NCBI RefSeq assembly: GCF_009914755.1
Contig: NC_060935.1
Origin: the human T2T-CHM13v2.0 reference genome, Homo sapiens
Length of the DNA: 64,000 nt
Strand: one strand, 5' to 3'
How positions within the stretch are numbered: position 1 is the first letter of the stretch; every line of letters starts with the position of its first letter. Below are positions 14,378-38,648 of this stretch, in pieces. A model generated the notes under the pieces. That model did not search any database. It saw only the letters and a program-made list of their open reading frames with translations, and had not been told where the DNA came from. The position numbers were made by a program, and so were the translations under genes.

Positions 14378-14499
14378 CTTTTAATGCAACAGGGTCTCGC
14401 TGTGTTGCCAAGGCTGGTCTTGAACTCTTGGCCCCAAGCAATCCTCTTGCCTCAGCCTCCCAAAGTGCTATGATTACAGGTGAGCCAGCATGCCCTGCC
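14378..14499 (-). mobile_element. FLAM / Alu left monomer
   Basis: agggtctcgctgtgttgccaaggctggtcttgaactc...caaagtgctatgattacagg. Confidence 0.85.
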
Positions 14500-14622
14500 C
14501 AATTTTTAATTTTGTTTATTTTTATATTGCTCTGTCATGGAAATTGAGACTAGCTGGTTTTAATTCCTTTTATATTCTATAAACTCATTCGAGGCTTTTG
14601 CATGTTGAGTAGCTGAAATTTC

Positions 14623-16411
14623 TTTTTTTTATTTCAGTATAATACTGTATTTTCCAATGTATTAAATGAAAGCCAAGAAAATATCAAATTAACTTTAAAA
14701 GCAAATCTTTACTCTTTAAAGAAAAAATACAAACTGTGGTATTTTTATAATAGATTATATTTTACATAATATAAATAAAATCACTAATGCATCTATATGC
14801 TTGGTTTCCTTAAACTACAATGAACCATAGAATGTGTGGAAAATGGGTTTAGTTTTTGGTGAAAAACAAACATCTTGGGAAAAACAGGTAGTTGTTTTTT
14901 TTTTTAACTGTCTATGCACAGGCACTGACATAACCAAGCCTTAATGGCCACCACTTCCTTTTCCTTGTCCAAAGCAGCCATTTCCATAGCTCTCCCTTCC
15001 ATATCCTCACTGGCATCTCCCAGATCCTCTGAAACCTCCACTAGACCTTCTGTAGTCTCCACCAGAGCTACCACTATAGCCACCTCAGTTATGTCCTCTA
15101 TAGTCTCCACCACCATCTCCACCATATCCTTCCTGACAGGGTGGAGTAGTGCCACCATAGCCTCCACTACTATAGCCTCCATCACTGTAGCCACTGCCAT
15201 AGCCTCCAACACCATAACTAGAATGTACCCTCCTATATCTACTTCCATTGTCATATCAGGCCATCTTGGGAGGATGTGGACCATCTCCATACTGTGTATT
15301 GCCAACCACAAGATTGATAACAGGAGCTAAGGGCCTAGAGATTTGGTGGATAATGTTCAGCATATATTAATTAAAAGGGTCCAACTGGCTGAAGATATCA
15401 GGTTGTTTGTTACTTCAACAACCAGAGGTTGTTGAATCTTCAACTCCAAGATTTCCTGGAAAGCAGTAATGCAGGCAGCAGCTTCATGGGATATTTGCAG
15501 TTTAATTCAGTCATCTACAAGAACAATCTGCCTATCACATTATACTTTCTTGAAGGCAAAGAGAAGCAACTTCAGGGAGGTGACTAAGGTCATGCCTTTA
15601 GCAGAGATGGCTCAGATTCAAGTACACCTGATCAAAGACAGTATTTGAACCCGAGCCATCTCTGCTAAAGGCACGGCCTTAGTCACCCCCGGCTTTTCAC
15701 CAAACACAAAGAAAAGAGAGGAGCACTTTTTGTCTTGCTACTAAAAAAACAATTAACAGACAATTTGTGGATAAGTGCATTATGCCCTTCATGGTGAGAA
15801 TATTTCTCTTTTCCTTCTGATAGCATCATTTGGGTACACACCAAAGGCCAAGAGGGAGATAACAGCATCCAAATTATTATCTGGTCCAGTGTTAGTAAAC
15901 ACTTGTGTCAATAATCTTCTGGAAATCCAGAATTAATATGAATCTCTTTGAGCTAAACTTTGGCTTCATAAGTCATTCTTAGTGTAGCCCTATTGAGTCT
16001 TTTGTGCTCACAAAATTGAATCTGAGTTTCTTCTCTACCCGTTCTAGAATCATTCCAGGATTGGAATACTGATAAAAGGGACACATAATCAGAAAATGGG
16101 TTTCCAGCAAAATTTCGGTGGATATATCCCACTTTCCTTCATCAATGAAAACAGGTAGCAGCAGAGATGGTATAGACAGGATCTCTCTCATAGAAAATAC
16201 ACCCCATTATCATCGTTTTGCCAAGATGAGGCTCAATGGAGAGTTTAGTCAGGACCCATCCTAGAGAATTAAACTTATCATTGCCATATAATGCATCAAG
16301 CTCTCCAAGAGTGTGCTCTGCCTAAATCACAGGATCCAAAGGTGGAGGTCCTTGGATTTCCTTGGCCAGAAATTAGCCAATTTCTCCCAGACACAGGAGT
16401 TTCATACTCAA
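14623..16411 (-). pseudogene. DHX9: Old, 5'-truncated processed pseudogene of DHX9 (RNA helicase A): C-terminal HA2/OB/RGG region, 3'UTR and poly-A
   Basis: Minus-strand translation gives LSMKLLCLGEIG*FLAKEIQGPPPLDPVI*AEHTLGELDAL, EGHNALIHKLSVNC, AISAKGMTLVT, SQLDPFN*YMLNIIHQISRP, YGDGPHPPKMA*YDNGS and an RGG tail ending GQGKGSGGH* (stop at 14941-14943). These are colinear with the DHX9 C-terminus, without introns. The 3'UTR matches DHX9 as recalled (gttcattgtagtttaaggaaaccaagcatatagatgcattagtg), with poly-T at 14623-14630. Many stops and frameshifts. Confidence 0.93.
15576..15690. repeat. 50-bp inverted repeat with 15-nt spacer inside the DHX9 pseudogene
   Basis: Arms 15576-15625 and 15641-15690 are 44/50 complementary, all differences are transitions, and the central 21 bp are perfect. 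Confidence 0.93.
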
Positions 16412-16431
16412 CATAATCACCCCTCACTTTT

Positions 16432-19400
16432 GTCTTTTTTTAAATTTTATTTGGGTTTAGGGGTACATGCACAGAATTGTTGTATAGGTAAACTGTGTCA
16501 CAGGGGTTTGGTGTCCAGATTATTTGGTCACCCAAGTAAGCATAGTACCCAATAGGTATTTTTTTATGCTCTCCTTCCTCCCACCCTCCACCCTTAAGCA
16601 GGCCCTGGTGTCTGTTGTTCCCCTTTGTGTCCATGTGTTTTCATTGCTTAGCTCTGACTTGTAAGTAAGAACATGTGGTATTTGGTTTTCTGTTCCCAGG
16701 ATAATGGTCTCTAGCTCCAACCATGTTGCTGCAAAGGGAATGATCTCATTCTTTTTTATGGTTGCATAGTAATCCATGGCATATATGTACCACATTTTCT
16801 TTATCTAGTATACCACGTGTATAAGCATTCCCCTTTCTCCTCAACCTCACCATCATCTGTTACTTTTTGAGTTTTAATAATGGCCAGTCTGACTGGTATG
16901 AGATGGTATCTCATTGTGGTTTTGATTTGCATTTCCCTAAAAATTACTGATGTTGAGCATTTCTTATTCTTGTTGACCACATGTATGTCTTTTGACATGT
17001 ATGTCCTTTGCCCACTTTTTAATAGTATTGTTTGGTTTTTGCTTGTAAATTTGATCATGTTCTGTATCGATTTTGCATATTGCACCTTTGTCAGATACAT
17101 AGTTTGCAAATATTTTCTCCCATTCTTTAGGTTGTATCTTTATTGATATTATAGTTTCTCGTGCTGTGCAAAAGCTGTTTAGTTTAATTAGATCCAATTT
17201 ATCAATTATTATTTTTGTTGCAATTGCTTTTGGCATCATTGTCATGAAATCTTTGCCAGGTCCTATGTCCAGAATGGTATTTCCTAGGTTTTCTTCTAGA
17301 GTTTTTATAGTTTTAGGTTTTACGTTTAAGTCTTTAATCCATCTTCAGTTGATTTTATATACGGTGTAAGAAAGGGGTCCAGTTTCAATCTTCTGAATAT
17401 TGCTAGCCAGTTATCCCACCACTATTTATTGAATAGCAAGTCCTTTCCCCATTGTTTGTTTTTGTTAGTTTTGTGGAAGATCAGATAGTTTTAGGTGTGC
17501 AGTTTTACTTCTGGGCCTCGATTCCGTTTCATTGGTCTATGTGTCTGTTTTCGTATCAGTGTTTTCATTACTACAGCCTTGTAGTATACTTTGAAGTCAG
17601 GTAACATGATACCTCCAGCTTTGTTCTTTTTGCTTATAATTGTTTGGGGTATTTGGATTCTTTTTTGGCTCTACATAAATTTTAGAATAGTTTCTTTCTA
17701 ATTCTGTGAAGAATGTCATTGATAGTTTGATAGGAATAGCATTGAATCTGTAAATTACTTTGGGCAATATGGTCATTTTTATAATATTGATTCTCCCTAT
17801 CCATGAGCATGGAATGTTTTTCCATTTGTGTATGTCATCTCTGATTTCTTGGAGTAGCGTTTTGTAATTGTCCTTGCAGAGATTTTACACCTCCCTAGTT
17901 AGCTACATTCCTAGGTATTTTATTCTTTTTCTGGCAATTGTAAACGGGATTGTGTTCCTGATTTGGCTCTCCACTTAGATGTTGTTTGTATATAGGAATG
18001 CTACAAATTTCTGTACATTGATTTTGTATCCCAAAACTTTGCTGAAGTTGTTTATCAGATCAAGAAGCTTTTAGGCAGAGACTATAGAGTTTGCTAGATA
18101 TTGAATCATGTCATCTGCAAGCAGGGATAGTTTGACTTCCTCTTCTCCTATTTGGATGCCTTTTATTTCTTTCTCTTGCCTGACTCCTTGGGCCAGGACT
18201 ACCAGTACTATGCTGAATAAGAGTGGTGAGAGAGGGTGTACTGGTCTCATTCTGGTTATCAAGGGGACCACTTCCAGCTTTTGCCTATTCAGTATGATGT
18301 AGGCTGTGGGTTTGTCACAGATGGCTCTTATTATTTTGAAGTATGCTCCTTCAGTGCCTAGTTTCTTGAGGGTTTTTACATAAAGGGATGTTAAATTTTA
18401 TTGAAAGCTTTTTTGCATCTATTGAGATAATCATGTGGTTTTTGTTTTTAAGTTCTGTTTATGTGTTGAGTCTTATTGATTTGCATATGTTGAGCCAAGC
18501 TTGCATCCCAGGGATGAAGCCTACTTGGTTATGGTGGATTAGATTTTTGATGTGCTGCTGAGTTCAGTTTGCTACTATTTTGTTGAGGATTTTTGCATCT
18601 ATTTTCATCAAGATGTTCAGCTTTTTATTGTGTCTCTGCCAGGTTTTGGTATCAGGATGATACCTGCTCCTCAACTTTTAGAATTAGTTTCACTAGGAGT
18701 GGTACTAGCTCTTCTTTATACAACTAGTTGAATTCAACTGTGAATCTGTCTGGTCCTGGGCTTTTTTTGGTAGGTAGGCTTTTTATTACTGATTCAATTT
18801 TGGAATTCACTATTAGTCTGTTCAGGGATTCCTGGTTCACTCTTGGGAGGTTGTATGTGTCCAGGAATTTATCCATTTCTTTTAGGTTTTCTGGTTTGTG
18901 TGCATAGAGGTGCTCATAGTAGTTCTGATGGTTATTTGTATTTCTGTGGGGTTGGTGGTAATGTCCCCTTTGTCATTTCTGATTGTGTTTATTTGGATTT
19001 TCTATATTTTCTTCTTTATTAGTCTACATAGCAGTCTATCTATCTTACTTATTCTTTCAAAAAACAAACTCCTGGATTTATTGATCTTTTGTATGGTGTT
19101 TTCACATCTCAAATTCCTTCAGTTCAGCTCTAATTTTGGTTATTTCTTGTCTTCTGCTAGCTTTGAGATTGGTTTGCTCTTGTGTCTCTAGTTTCTCAAG
19201 GTGTGATGTTAGGTTGTTAATTTTAGATCTTTCAAGCCTTTCGACGTGGGCATTTAGTGCTATAAACTTCCCTCTTAACACTGCCTTAGCTGTGTCCCAG
19301 AGATTCTTGTATGTTCTGTCTTTGTTTTCATTTGGTCAAAGAATTTCTTGATTTCTGCCATAGTTTCCCTATTTATCCAAAAATCATTCAAGAGTAGGTT

Positions 19401-33409: not shown

Positions 33410-34651
33410 GAATATTTTCATGTTACTAGATGGTTCTGGCTTTCTGAGCAAATTTTACCAGAAGCTAAATTAGAGGCCAAGACTTGGAAGTTAAATGATG
33501 ACAGAATAGACAGTGAGAGGACTTTTTAGAGATATACCTTCCTGGATGTTTACATTTCAAAGGAGGATAAGACACAGAGACATTCAGGCATTGTAAATCC
33601 AGACGCAACTGTCTTATCTTCTGCCTTGCAACACTTATTTACATTGCAAAGTGTAAGTACCCAGGACTCCTTCTTTTCTCTTCCCTTATTTACATTTGAA
33701 AGACTAGGTTTCTCTCACTCTGAGGTGGGCAGGATGGCAGATGTTTAAACTATCCTATATAAACTGCCCGAATCATAATATCAGAGTTCCTTTTCTGCAG
33801 TATAGTTCCTGGTACATGTAGAATGACTTAGACTCTCACCATATTGTTCCAGAGGATGAAAAAATTGGGCAAGAAGAACGAATGCAGTTATTGATGTAAG
33901 AAATAATACCTTTGATCTCTGCTTCAGAAACTTCATGTTTATATTCAAGTTAAGATATATAAACATAGATTTTTTAGACTTATTTTAAAATCTAAACTCA
34001 CAAAACACACAAGAAAATAATCCCCCATGAAAAATAGCCGACCTATCAAATGGAAGGATGAGCAGCCCAGGAACTTGAAAAAAGGGAACAATCTGAAAAG
34101 GACTATAAAATGATGGTATTTAAATGTTTTTAAAAGATAAAAGGAGGCACAAAACACGTAAGGAACAAGACAGCATGAAGGAAAAATAGACAAATTTAAA
34201 GAGAATCAAACATAAATTCTTGATTTGAAATTAATAGACTCAATGGCTTAAGTTTGAAAGCTGTTAGGAAACACTAAAGAGAAACAACTAGTATAAGATT
34301 CCCATGCAGAATACAATACAAAGAGATAGAGATAAAAAAGCCCAAAGGAAGGTTAAGAGATACAGAAGTGAGAATGATCAAGCACAACATACTTGTAAGA
34401 GCAGTCCCAGAAAGCAAATAGCAACAATATGAGAGAAGCAATAATCAATGAGCTAAAGGAAGAAAATTTTTAATAATTGATAAAAAGACATGATTTTTTT
34501 CATGTTGACTAGCACACCAAATTAAAAATAAATAGACAAATCCTAGACACCAATGACAAAGAATTATATAAGCAATCTTAGATTTAAAAAAAAGACCCAC
34601 AAGGAACCATAATGTGACTTTTAGATAATAACAGAATAATATCTACAAAAT

Positions 34652-37518: not shown

Positions 37519-38648
37519 TTTAGAGTAGTATTAGTAAAAAGTTTATATCTTTCAATGCTTACATTAGAAAAGAAAAATTGTCAAAATGAACAAGCAAAGT
37601 TCCTAATTTAAAAGGCAGAAAAATATAAAATCAAAGAACATAGAAAGGAAAAGGTAACAAAGAGTAGAAAATAATAAAATTTCTAAAAAGTTACAAAAAT
37701 TTTAAAGACTAATAAGATAAGCCTCTGGCAAAAATAATTAAGAAAAATGAAATACATAAATGTAAAATTTTGGGAGTGAAAAATGTACAGCAAACTTTTT
37801 AAACTTAACCAAGTACAATAAATACAATTTTTTTAAGTTTAAAAAGAAACAGAAGAAATAAATAGATTTAAACTTAAAAAGACATCAAAGTAGTAGCAAA
37901 ACTGTACCAAGATAAAACAGAGCAAAACAAAAATCTTCCCAGATAGTTTGACCAATTCTACCAAAACTAAAAAATTAATCTCTACCTTCTATAAACATTC
38001 TAAAAAATAGAAAAAAAATTAAATTCTAACCCATGTATTATCCTAATATAACCTTGAAACCAAAATCAACCAGAGTACAAAAAATAAACATTATATGCCA
38101 ATTTTATTTATGTGTCAAAACTCTATAAAATAATATTTTCTAGCAATGTAATTTTTAATTATACCACATAAAACTATGAAAGCAAGGATGCTTTGCTAAT
38201 ATAAACTCTATTGCTGTAATTTTTCCAATCAACAGAGTAAAGAGAAACTAACAAAATTATCTCAAAAGAGAATACTATTAGATAATAATAAAGACTGCTG
38301 GCTGTGTTCCATAGTTCAAAGTTCTGCATCTATAAATTTATTTATTCTTTACAACAACGTCTGATGTATTTTTATTTTCATTTTATTTTCTTATTAGGCA
38401 TTGTCATTGACTAACAAAATAGGCAATAACAAATAACAAAGCTGTGGCAGAGAGAAGCTCAATGTCATCCAGCTTACTAGTGGCAAGTCCAGGATTTGAA
38501 ATCAGACTGATTTCAACATCCATGCTCTTAACTACAACATATGTTCTTTCTCAAGTCCCAGTTGCTATTTTTAGGGGGAAATCTTAGCAAACTACGAATA
38601 GACGTAATATCCAAAGATCTAAGAAAGTATCTACTAACAAACAATCTA

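What the first reader, a model, noticed from the sequence alone, without database searches (positions are those of the whole stretch)
15576..15690. Pre-miRNA/endo-siRNA-like hairpin built by inverted duplication inside the DHX9 pseudogene
Seen: a ~70-nt insertion between the codons for ...FGEK and the following ...RAISAKGMTLVT segment contains an inverted copy of the next ~50 nt, giving a 50-bp stem and a 15-nt loop. All 6 arm differences are transitions. On the minus-strand RNA four are G-U wobbles (48/50 paired), and 21 central bp (gagccatctctgctaaaggca) are perfect. This core still encodes AISAKG although the rest of the pseudogene is heavily decayed. Established: inverted-repeat pseudogenes yield endo-siRNAs against parent genes in oocytes, and DHX9 resolves dsRNA from inverted repeats. 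Inference: whichever strand is transcribed, one arm is antisense to DHX9 mRNA, so this could be a dsRNA-dependent feedback regulator of DHX9.
Basis: partly seen in the sequence, partly recalled or inferred. Interest (0 to 1): 0.75.

Follow-up and report, generated by a model that had tools for sequence, protein, structure and literature searches.

The report
Fold-back hairpin scar in DHX9 retrocopy
An old, broken copy of the DHX9 gene inside a DLG2 intron carries a real 50-base-pair hairpin, likely made by a polymerase folding back on its own strand, but its two arms have decayed as fast as the rest of the copy, so it is likely a harmless copying scar rather than a regulator of DHX9.

Summary
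The hairpin is real: arms 15576-15625 and 15641-15690, 44 of 50 complementary, folding z about -13 to -14. It is a 69-nt insertion exactly at an exon-exon junction of a processed DHX9 pseudogene (about 14631-16408): an inverted copy of the next exon's first 48 nt plus a 19-nt spacer. The arms differ from modern DHX9 at 7 of 48 and 5 of 48 sites, the flanks at 229 of 1626 (Fisher p 0.84 and 0.67). Longer perfect runs lie elsewhere in the copy, and the 21-bp core, all-transition pattern and G-U bias are chance-level. The structure fits the known class of template-switch hairpins, of which 57 of 6,054 are miRBase loci. Two more small fold-back copies of the same polarity lie in this retrocopy, so an origin during L1 reverse transcription remains possible (about 35%). 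Against it: the stem is over-long for Drosha, and oocyte endo-siRNAs are reported mouse-specific. Verdict: a neutral scar, at most a proto-miRNA.

The parts
14631..16408 (-). Processed DHX9 pseudogene, 5'-truncated: last eight exons joined (7 junctions), through the 3' UTR
   Evidence: Exon-by-exon matches to the parent on contig 1; 229 of 1626 aligned flank sites differ; non-CpG divergence at 0-, 2- and 4-fold sites 13.1, 13.3, 11.6%
14623..14630 (-). Poly(A)-tail remnant (8 A on the minus strand)
   Evidence: Homology to the parent 3' UTR ends here, just after the decayed polyadenylation signal
15576..15623 (-). Original arm: first 48 nt of the exon that begins with codons IRTRAISAKG (sense to DHX9 on the minus strand)
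   Evidence: 7 of 48 sites differ from the parent; exon start from the parent's AG acceptor
15624..15642 (.). 19-nt inserted spacer (15-nt loop plus 2 closing pairs), source unresolved; possibly a degraded copy of the upstream exon's 3' end
   Evidence: 12 of 15 match to the upstream exon's end, reached by 1.4-2.4% of control windows before correction for 8 tests; no match to the intron's 3' end; snRNA match at chance level
15643..15690 (+). Inverted copy of the exon's first 48 nt; antisense to DHX9 mRNA in a minus-strand transcript
   Evidence: Inverted match to the parent exon start (L016); 5 of 48 sites differ; 22 nt perfect complement at 15652-15673
15691..15692 (.). Two unexplained bases joining the inverted copy to the intact end of the upstream exon (last exon base at 15693)
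   Evidence: read side by side
15414..15443 (.). Second, smaller fold-back: perfect 10-bp inverted repeat with 3-nt loop (15414-15436), made by a 15-nt insertion (15429-15443); not at a junction
   Evidence: Insertion absent from the parent and from the contig-13 copy; longest perfect short-loop inverted repeat in the retrocopy apart from the main hairpin
16400..16414 (.). Possible third fold-back: the retrocopy's 5' junction resembles an inverted copy of target-site DNA at 14602-14618
   Evidence: 15 of 17 columns; score reached by 0.05% of window scans in both orientations; noticed after the fact, and 5 of the 15 bases also align to the parent

Best explanation
The hairpin is a 69-nt insertion in an old processed DHX9 pseudogene, likely made in one step when a nascent DNA strand folded back, copied 48 nt of itself and returned to its template, and it likely has no selected function because its arms have since decayed at the same rate as the flanks. 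Shown: the geometry, the position at the exon junction, and the equal decay. Inferred: synthesis ran along the plus strand, passed the exon's first base, snapped back on a few complementary bases, extended on its own strand and resumed at the end of the upstream exon. The parent has a 5-bp inverted repeat straddling this junction (positions -20..-16 with -4..+1) that would leave exactly 19 nt between the two exon copies, the spacing observed. Timing is open: about 65% a replication or repair template switch after the retrocopy inserted, about 35% during L1 reverse transcription. When a long DLG2 isoform is transcribed, the hairpin would form briefly in intron RNA and most likely be degraded with it.
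For: Arms versus modern DHX9: 7 of 48 and 5 of 48; flanks 229 of 1626; Fisher p 0.84, 0.67, both arms together 0.76. Perfect runs of 51, 46 and 31 nt elsewhere exceed the 25-nt core. P(run of 21 or more given 6 differences in 50) = 0.21; P(6 of 6 transitions) = 0.07 at the flank's rate of 146 of 229; P(4 or more of 6 G-U on a given strand) = 0.34. Neutral decay of the whole copy: equal divergence at 0-, 2- and 4-fold sites. Parent and both contig-13 copies lack the insertion. A second small fold-back lies 130 nt away at no junction. Base rate: 57 of 6,054 primate template-switch hairpins of miRNA size in gene regions are miRBase loci. Stem of 50 bp lies outside the 33-39 optimum. No Rfam family reaches its gathering score (best 39.7 bits against 64). 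Arms are somewhat closer to each other than a duplication at insertion predicts: best estimate 0.34-0.49 of the copy's age had passed, p 0.013-0.139 over 6 settings.
Against: Power is low: 48 sites per arm cannot exclude modest constraint, or constraint on one 22-mer. The inverted arm is nominally less diverged (10% against 14%). No other primate genome and no small-RNA data were available. An insertion point exactly on one of 7 junctions has a chance of 0.4% (2% within 2 nt), and the snap-back model explains the fold-back register better than the exact return point. The spacer matches the upstream exon's end only in a register shifted by 5 nt. The interval for timing includes zero in 4 of 6 settings. 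Annotated template-switch miRNAs with inverted segments of 47-61 nt exist in sense introns, so length does not rule out processing.
Confidence: 0.8

Rival explanations
1. Rival on origin: L1 ORF2p made the hairpin during target-primed reverse transcription. The first-strand cDNA stalled at the splice junction, snapped back, was extended on itself and jumped back to the mRNA. The product would still be neutral.
For: Insertion exactly at a junction (0.4% by chance). Three fold-back copies in 1.8 kb, each with its source upstream on the plus strand, which is the first-strand cDNA direction (1 in 8 by chance), one of them at the 5' junction and copied from target DNA. ORF2p extends hairpins, primes from 5-6 nt, copies DNA templates, adds non-templated bases and jumps templates in vitro (passages). 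Inverted duplications of target DNA are seen at L1 insertion sites (passages).
Against: Arm-specific non-CpG changes number 5 where about 10 are expected for a duplication as old as the copy, and 3 changes are shared by both arms; two of these are at four-fold sites and may be the parent's older state. The second fold-back is still perfect over 10 bp. The passages read describe inverted duplication of flanking DNA, not inside the cDNA. A hairpin can itself provoke later switches nearby.
Confidence: 0.3
2. One reading: the hairpin is processed to a small RNA that silences DHX9 mRNA and is kept by selection.
For: Same strand as the host DLG2 intron (annotation in the finding). Listed as transcribed in sense at 1.05 FPKM in brain, 1.19 in heart, 0.75 in colon, correlation with the parent -0.25 (meaning of the strand column checked). 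A 22-mer starting at 15673 begins with U and is fully complementary to DHX9 coding sequence. A human precedent is claimed for the PPM1K pseudogene (passages).
Against: No excess conservation. A cut placed 11 or 13 nt from the stem base puts a mismatch and G-U pairs in the seed; a cut 22 nt from the loop keeps the seed but has a G-U at 12 and a mismatch at 17; the perfect 22-mer needs a cut that fits neither rule (the two cut rules are recalled). Not among 17 miRBase retro-miRs, whose parents do not include DHX9 in the text read. Absent from both small-RNA sheets of the published table, though those cell lines show 0 FPKM for it. Ovary and testis FPKM 0. Endo-siRNAs undetected in oocytes of 10 non-mouse mammals.
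Confidence: 0.04
3. Proto-miRNA without selected function: Microprocessor or ADAR acts on the intronic hairpin at a low rate in DLG2-expressing cells, giving traces of small RNA or edited intron RNA with no effect on fitness. Compatible with either origin.
For: 81 of 99 intragenic template-switch miRNA loci lie in sense introns, several with inverted segments of 47-61 nt. Loop of 15 nt is within the enriched 8-16 range. A CNNC starts 10 nt after the 3' arm.
Against: Only 57 of 6,054 such hairpins are annotated. No MIR gene in the window's annotation. No basal UG next to the 5' arm. Stem too long.
Confidence: 0.12
4. Fossil of a splicing intermediate: reverse transcriptase copied the downstream exon into the lariat intron up to the branch point, folded back and jumped to the free upstream exon; or it jumped to an snRNA.
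For: Junction position; a 19-nt spacer is about a branch-point distance (recalled).
Against: Spacer against the intron's 3' end scores 10, reached by 57% of gene windows and below the 5th percentile (12) simulated for true descent; it does not end in AG; best ungapped match in 53.5 kb of the parent gene has 5 mismatches. Best snRNA match (U2, 13 of 17) is reached by 18-21% of controls (U1, U2, U5, U6 tested, U4 not).
Confidence: 0.03

Closest known systems
Template-switch-mutation (TSM) hairpins and TSM-born miRNAs (Monttinen, Frilander, Loytynoja 2023, PMC10710096)
   Same: One-step inverted copy of adjacent sequence giving a near-perfect stem; primate-age; in the sense strand of a large intron; inverted segment length within their range.
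   Different: Lies in a retrocopy, so one arm is complementary to a coding mRNA; the 19-nt spacer is not explained by a simple two-jump switch; no read evidence; not found in the Dataset S1 searches.
Retro-miRs, novel and exon-junction classes (Mercuri et al. 2023, PMC10486083)
   Same: A hairpin in a primate retrocopy that the parent lacks, touching an exon-exon junction.
   Different: Their 17 are miRBase entries with expression data; their hairpins come from joined exons or point mutations (the word 'inverted' does not occur in the main text). This one comes from an inserted inverted duplication and is unannotated.
Pseudogene inverted-repeat endo-siRNA loci (mouse oocyte loci, recalled; human PPM1K pseudogene, PMC3616710)
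   Same: Inverted repeat in a pseudogene with one arm antisense to the parent mRNA.
   Different: Stem holds about two Dicer lengths; hosted in an intron rather than a stable transcript; no reads shown; oocyte endo-siRNAs reported mouse-specific.
Inverted duplications at L1 ORF2p insertion sites (bioRxiv 10.1101/2024.12.14.628481)
   Same: Self-annealed 3' end primes synthesis on a few bases of homology; the retrocopy's 5' junction may be such a case.
   Different: Described for flanking genomic DNA; the main hairpin is internal to the cDNA and at a splice junction.

Membership tests
TSM-generated hairpin | Inverted fragment of 15 nt or more copied from adjacent sequence and absent from the ancestral state | tested here: met
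   48 nt; absent from the parent and both contig-13 copies
TSM-generated hairpin | Whole change explained by two reciprocal jumps (under 10 nt unexplained) | tested here: not met
   19-nt spacer plus 2 nt not cleanly templated; fits the paper's 'partially explained' class
TSM-generated hairpin | Arose during DNA replication, placed on a branch of the primate tree | not testable with these tools
   No primate relatives held; internal dating inconclusive
Canonical pri-miRNA / retro-miR | Stem of 33-39 nt with at least 82% pairing | tested here: not met
   50 bp, 96% paired against the optimum in PMC5340965
Canonical pri-miRNA / retro-miR | Apical loop of 8-16 nt and flanking motifs (basal UG, CNNC) | tested here: inconclusive
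   15-nt loop; CNNC at +10; no basal UG
Canonical pri-miRNA / retro-miR | Transcribed | tested here: inconclusive
   Inside a DLG2 intron on the same strand; about 1 FPKM in brain and heart in a published table; no reads seen by me
Canonical pri-miRNA / retro-miR | Precise 5' ends, both arms seen, Drosha/Dicer dependence, AGO loading | not testable with these tools
   No small-RNA data; miRBase and MirGeneDB not on hand; no Rfam gathering hit
Canonical pri-miRNA / retro-miR | Mature and seed region conserved above the flanks | tested here: not met
   Against the parent only: arms equal the flanks; cross-species test not possible
Pseudogene hairpin endo-siRNA locus | Arm complementary to the parent mRNA | tested here: met
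   46 of 48 pairs, 22 nt perfect
Pseudogene hairpin endo-siRNA locus | Phased 21-23-nt reads with 2-nt overhangs; parent rises on Dicer or AGO2 loss | not testable with these tools
   No read data; not in the small-RNA sheets of PMC3974860, from cell lines where it is not expressed
L1-made processed pseudogene | Introns absent, 5' truncation, poly(A) remnant | tested here: met
L1-made processed pseudogene | Direct target-site duplication | tested here: not met
   No direct repeat at the 5' end; an inverted 15-of-17 match instead

The most novel reading that the evidence does not exclude
L1 reverse transcriptase snapped back at a splice junction while copying DHX9 mRNA and so built, in one event, a ready-made short-hairpin gene against its own parent; hosted in the DLG2 intron, it is cut in neurons to a 22-nt RNA fully complementary to DHX9 coding sequence. 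This would be a retrotransposition route to parent-targeting small RNAs. The origin half alone (fold-back by ORF2p at insertion) has about 0.3; both halves together are the probability given.
Probability: 0.03. Interest if true: 0.75.

Novelty: new member of a known kind. Interest (0 to 1): 0.22.

Why it matters
As it stands, it is one of thousands of template-switch hairpins and matters little. Two points keep it worth a line. First, in a retrocopy such a hairpin is automatically complementary to a coding mRNA, so this class is a cheap place to look for newborn small RNAs with a built-in target; this one has arm-specific bases that make reads easy to assign. Second, three same-polarity fold-backs in one 1.8-kb retrocopy, one exactly at a splice junction, pose a question that can be answered from existing genomes: does L1 reverse transcriptase leave internal snap-back duplications at exon junctions?

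Tried and rejected
Selection on the core: rejected. All-transition and G-U bias as signs of structure conservation: chance-level. Known RNA family: 7 Rfam matches at E up to 5, none near its gathering score; the two miRNA matches reflect a generic hairpin. Source of the spacer: only itself in the window at up to 3 mismatches; 2 other genome hits at 1 mismatch against 2 for the control; none better than 5 mismatches in the parent gene; intron 3' end and 5' end not supported; U1, U2, U5, U6 at chance. An older DHX9 retrocopy to fix the ancestral state: none beyond contigs 1, 11 and 13 (the tool gives lower bounds). Direct target-site duplication: none at the 5' end; the best direct match, 16 of 18 at about 34496-34513, lies 18 kb away and was taken as chance. 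Literature on this locus: searches gave no paper on it by title or abstract start (59, 6 and 0 papers; others listed; none opened); three of the four terms were guessed names, and the DLG2 gene id used was recalled.

Full report
Observation. The six differences are all transitions; four give G-U on the minus-strand RNA and two give A-C; 15593-15613 is perfect. Both strands fold far below shuffles (z -14.5 and -13.1). No other long short-loop inverted repeat is in the window. Rfam gave 7 matches at E up to 5 over 14400-17000, none near a gathering score.

Context. A search of the window's own genome found the parent gene on contig 1 exon by exon, a younger retrocopy and a short second copy on contig 13, and this copy. 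The copy is processed: eight exons, seven junctions, 3' UTR and an 8-nt poly(A) remnant at 14623-14630; it spans about 14631-16408, and the annotated 15693-16408 stops at the insertion. Non-CpG divergence from the parent is 111 of 846, 32 of 241 and 26 of 225 at 0-, 2- and 4-fold sites, so decay is neutral; the contig-13 copy is about a third as diverged. At a recalled primate rate of about 2 per 1,000 sites per million years this is some 50-65 million years (inference).

Anatomy. Read on the minus strand: intact end of the upstream exon (last base 15693); two bases; the reverse complement of the next exon's first 48 nt (15690-15643); 19 nt of other sequence (15642-15624); then the next exon from its first base (15623). 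The insertion is therefore 69 nt and falls exactly on the splice junction. The parent and both contig-13 copies have the plain junction.

Test of selection. The original arm differs from modern DHX9 at 7 of 48 sites and the inverted arm at 5 of 48; the flanks at 229 of 1626 (Fisher p 0.84 and 0.67; both arms 0.76). The exon just upstream is the least diverged (20 of 223). Perfect runs of 51, 46 and 31 nt elsewhere exceed the 25-nt core. A run of 21 or more arises in 21% of random placements of 6 differences in 50; six of six transitions has probability 0.07; four or more G-U on a chosen strand 0.34. So the intact AISAKG is unremarkable. The test has little power for a single 22-mer, and no second species was available.

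Origin. The layout is that of a fold-back template switch. Read directly, the parent has a 5-bp inverted repeat across the junction (-20..-16 with -4..+1). A plus-strand nascent chain that snapped back on it would leave 19 nt between the two exon copies, as observed. The spacer does resemble the upstream exon's end (12 of 15; 1.4% of mRNA windows and 2.4% of gene windows score as high, before correction for 8 tests), but in a register shifted by 5 nt, so further changes are needed. It does not resemble the intron's 3' end, and its best snRNA match is chance-level, so a fossil splicing intermediate is unsupported. Two further fold-back copies share the polarity: a 15-nt insertion that makes a perfect 10-bp hairpin at 15414-15436, at no junction, and a 15-of-17 inverted match between the 5' junction (16400-16414) and target DNA beside the poly(A) (14602-14618), where a direct target-site duplication was expected and not found (noticed after the fact).

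Timing. Three changes are shared by both arms (exon positions 4, 9, 36), four are private to the original arm and two to the copy. A simple likelihood puts the duplication after 0.34-0.49 of the copy's age, p 0.013-0.139 against 'at insertion', with the interval including zero in 4 of 6 settings. The shared changes are at one CpG and two four-fold sites, so they may be parallel or ancestral. For an origin at insertion: the exact junction (0.4% by chance, 2% within 2 nt), the clustering, the first-strand polarity (1 in 8), and ORF2p's hairpin priming and template jumping in vitro (PMC10830420, passages); inverted duplications of flanking DNA occur at L1 sites (10.1101/2024.12.14.628481, passages). 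I put it at about 65 to 35 for a later DNA-level switch.

Could it act on DHX9? By the annotation given, a long DLG2 isoform reads through on the minus strand. Table S1 of PMC3974860 lists a chr11 minus-strand processed DHX9 pseudogene at 1.05 FPKM in brain, 1.19 in heart, 0.75 in colon and 0 in the other 13 tissues and both cell lines, sense-transcribed, correlation -0.25 with the parent (row; column meaning checked against Table 1). That this row is our locus is inferred from chromosome, strand, parent and length. It occurs once in that file, so not in the two small-RNA sheets; six image-only supplements could not be read. The 5' arm pairs with modern DHX9 mRNA at 46 of 48 positions with 22 perfect. 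But cuts 11 or 13 nt from the base put a mismatch and G-U pairs in the seed, a cut 22 nt from the loop leaves a G-U at 12 and a mismatch at 17, and the perfect 22-mer fits neither recalled rule. The 50-bp stem is outside the 33-39 optimum (PMC5340965, passages). In oocytes of 11 mammals endo-siRNAs were found in mouse only (PMC10964541, passages). That DHX9 resolves inverted-repeat dsRNA, and the mouse oocyte pseudogene loci, are recalled, not checked.

Comparison with the known. PMC10710096 (parts 1-3 of 6 read; Dataset S1 part 1 of 3 read and searched; Dataset S2 too large to open) reports 53,666 template switches in human-lineage gene regions, 6,054 of miRNA size, 57 in miRBase; several annotated ones have 47-61-nt inverted segments in sense introns, which keeps low-level processing possible. 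PMC10486083 (parts 1-2 of 6 and passages; supplements not opened) lists 17 retro-miRs, none made by inverted duplication in the text read. PMC3616710 (passages; supplement unreadable, so its 448 candidate pseudogenes could not be checked for this locus) claims a hairpin-derived small RNA from a human pseudogene that lowers its parent. PMC5398296 (part 1 of 6) reports 7.8% of intergenic human inverted duplicates as expressed. Searches showed no paper on this hairpin in their listings; miRBase and MirGeneDB were not on hand.

Verdict. A real, new member of a known kind: a template-switch hairpin in a retrocopy, most likely neutral (0.8). Functional feedback on DHX9 0.04; trace processing without function 0.12; origin during L1 reverse transcription about 0.3. 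Interest 0.22.

Noticed in passing
window 14631-15692: The DHX9 pseudogene continues about 1,060 nt beyond its annotated end (15693), through the last exons and 3' UTR to a poly(A) remnant; the annotation stops at the hairpin insertion.
   Followed up: yes
window 15414-15465: A nest of small inverted repeats around the 15-nt insertion: besides the 10-bp hairpin, nearby substitutions relative to the parent make a 5-bp and a 6-bp inverted repeat, as iterative template switching would (read; not tested statistically).
   Followed up: partly
window 16400-16414 and 14602-14618: The retrocopy's 5' junction matches target-site DNA in inverted orientation (15 of 17) where a direct target-site duplication is expected.
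   Followed up: partly
window about 16433 onward, minus strand: What looks like the 3' end of an old L1 element abuts the pseudogene's 5' end (recognised from recall; no repeat library on hand).
   Followed up: no
L006:1427-1688 (G000:C13:76213969-76214230): A second, 262-nt piece of the contig-13 DHX9 retrocopy, 98% identical to it, lies about 2.4 kb downstream and is flanked by short inverted-looking sequence; it covers the same exon junction without the insertion.
   Followed up: no
window 37795-37880: Two overlapping 14-bp perfect inverted repeats with 23-24-nt loops in A+T-rich sequence.
   Followed up: no
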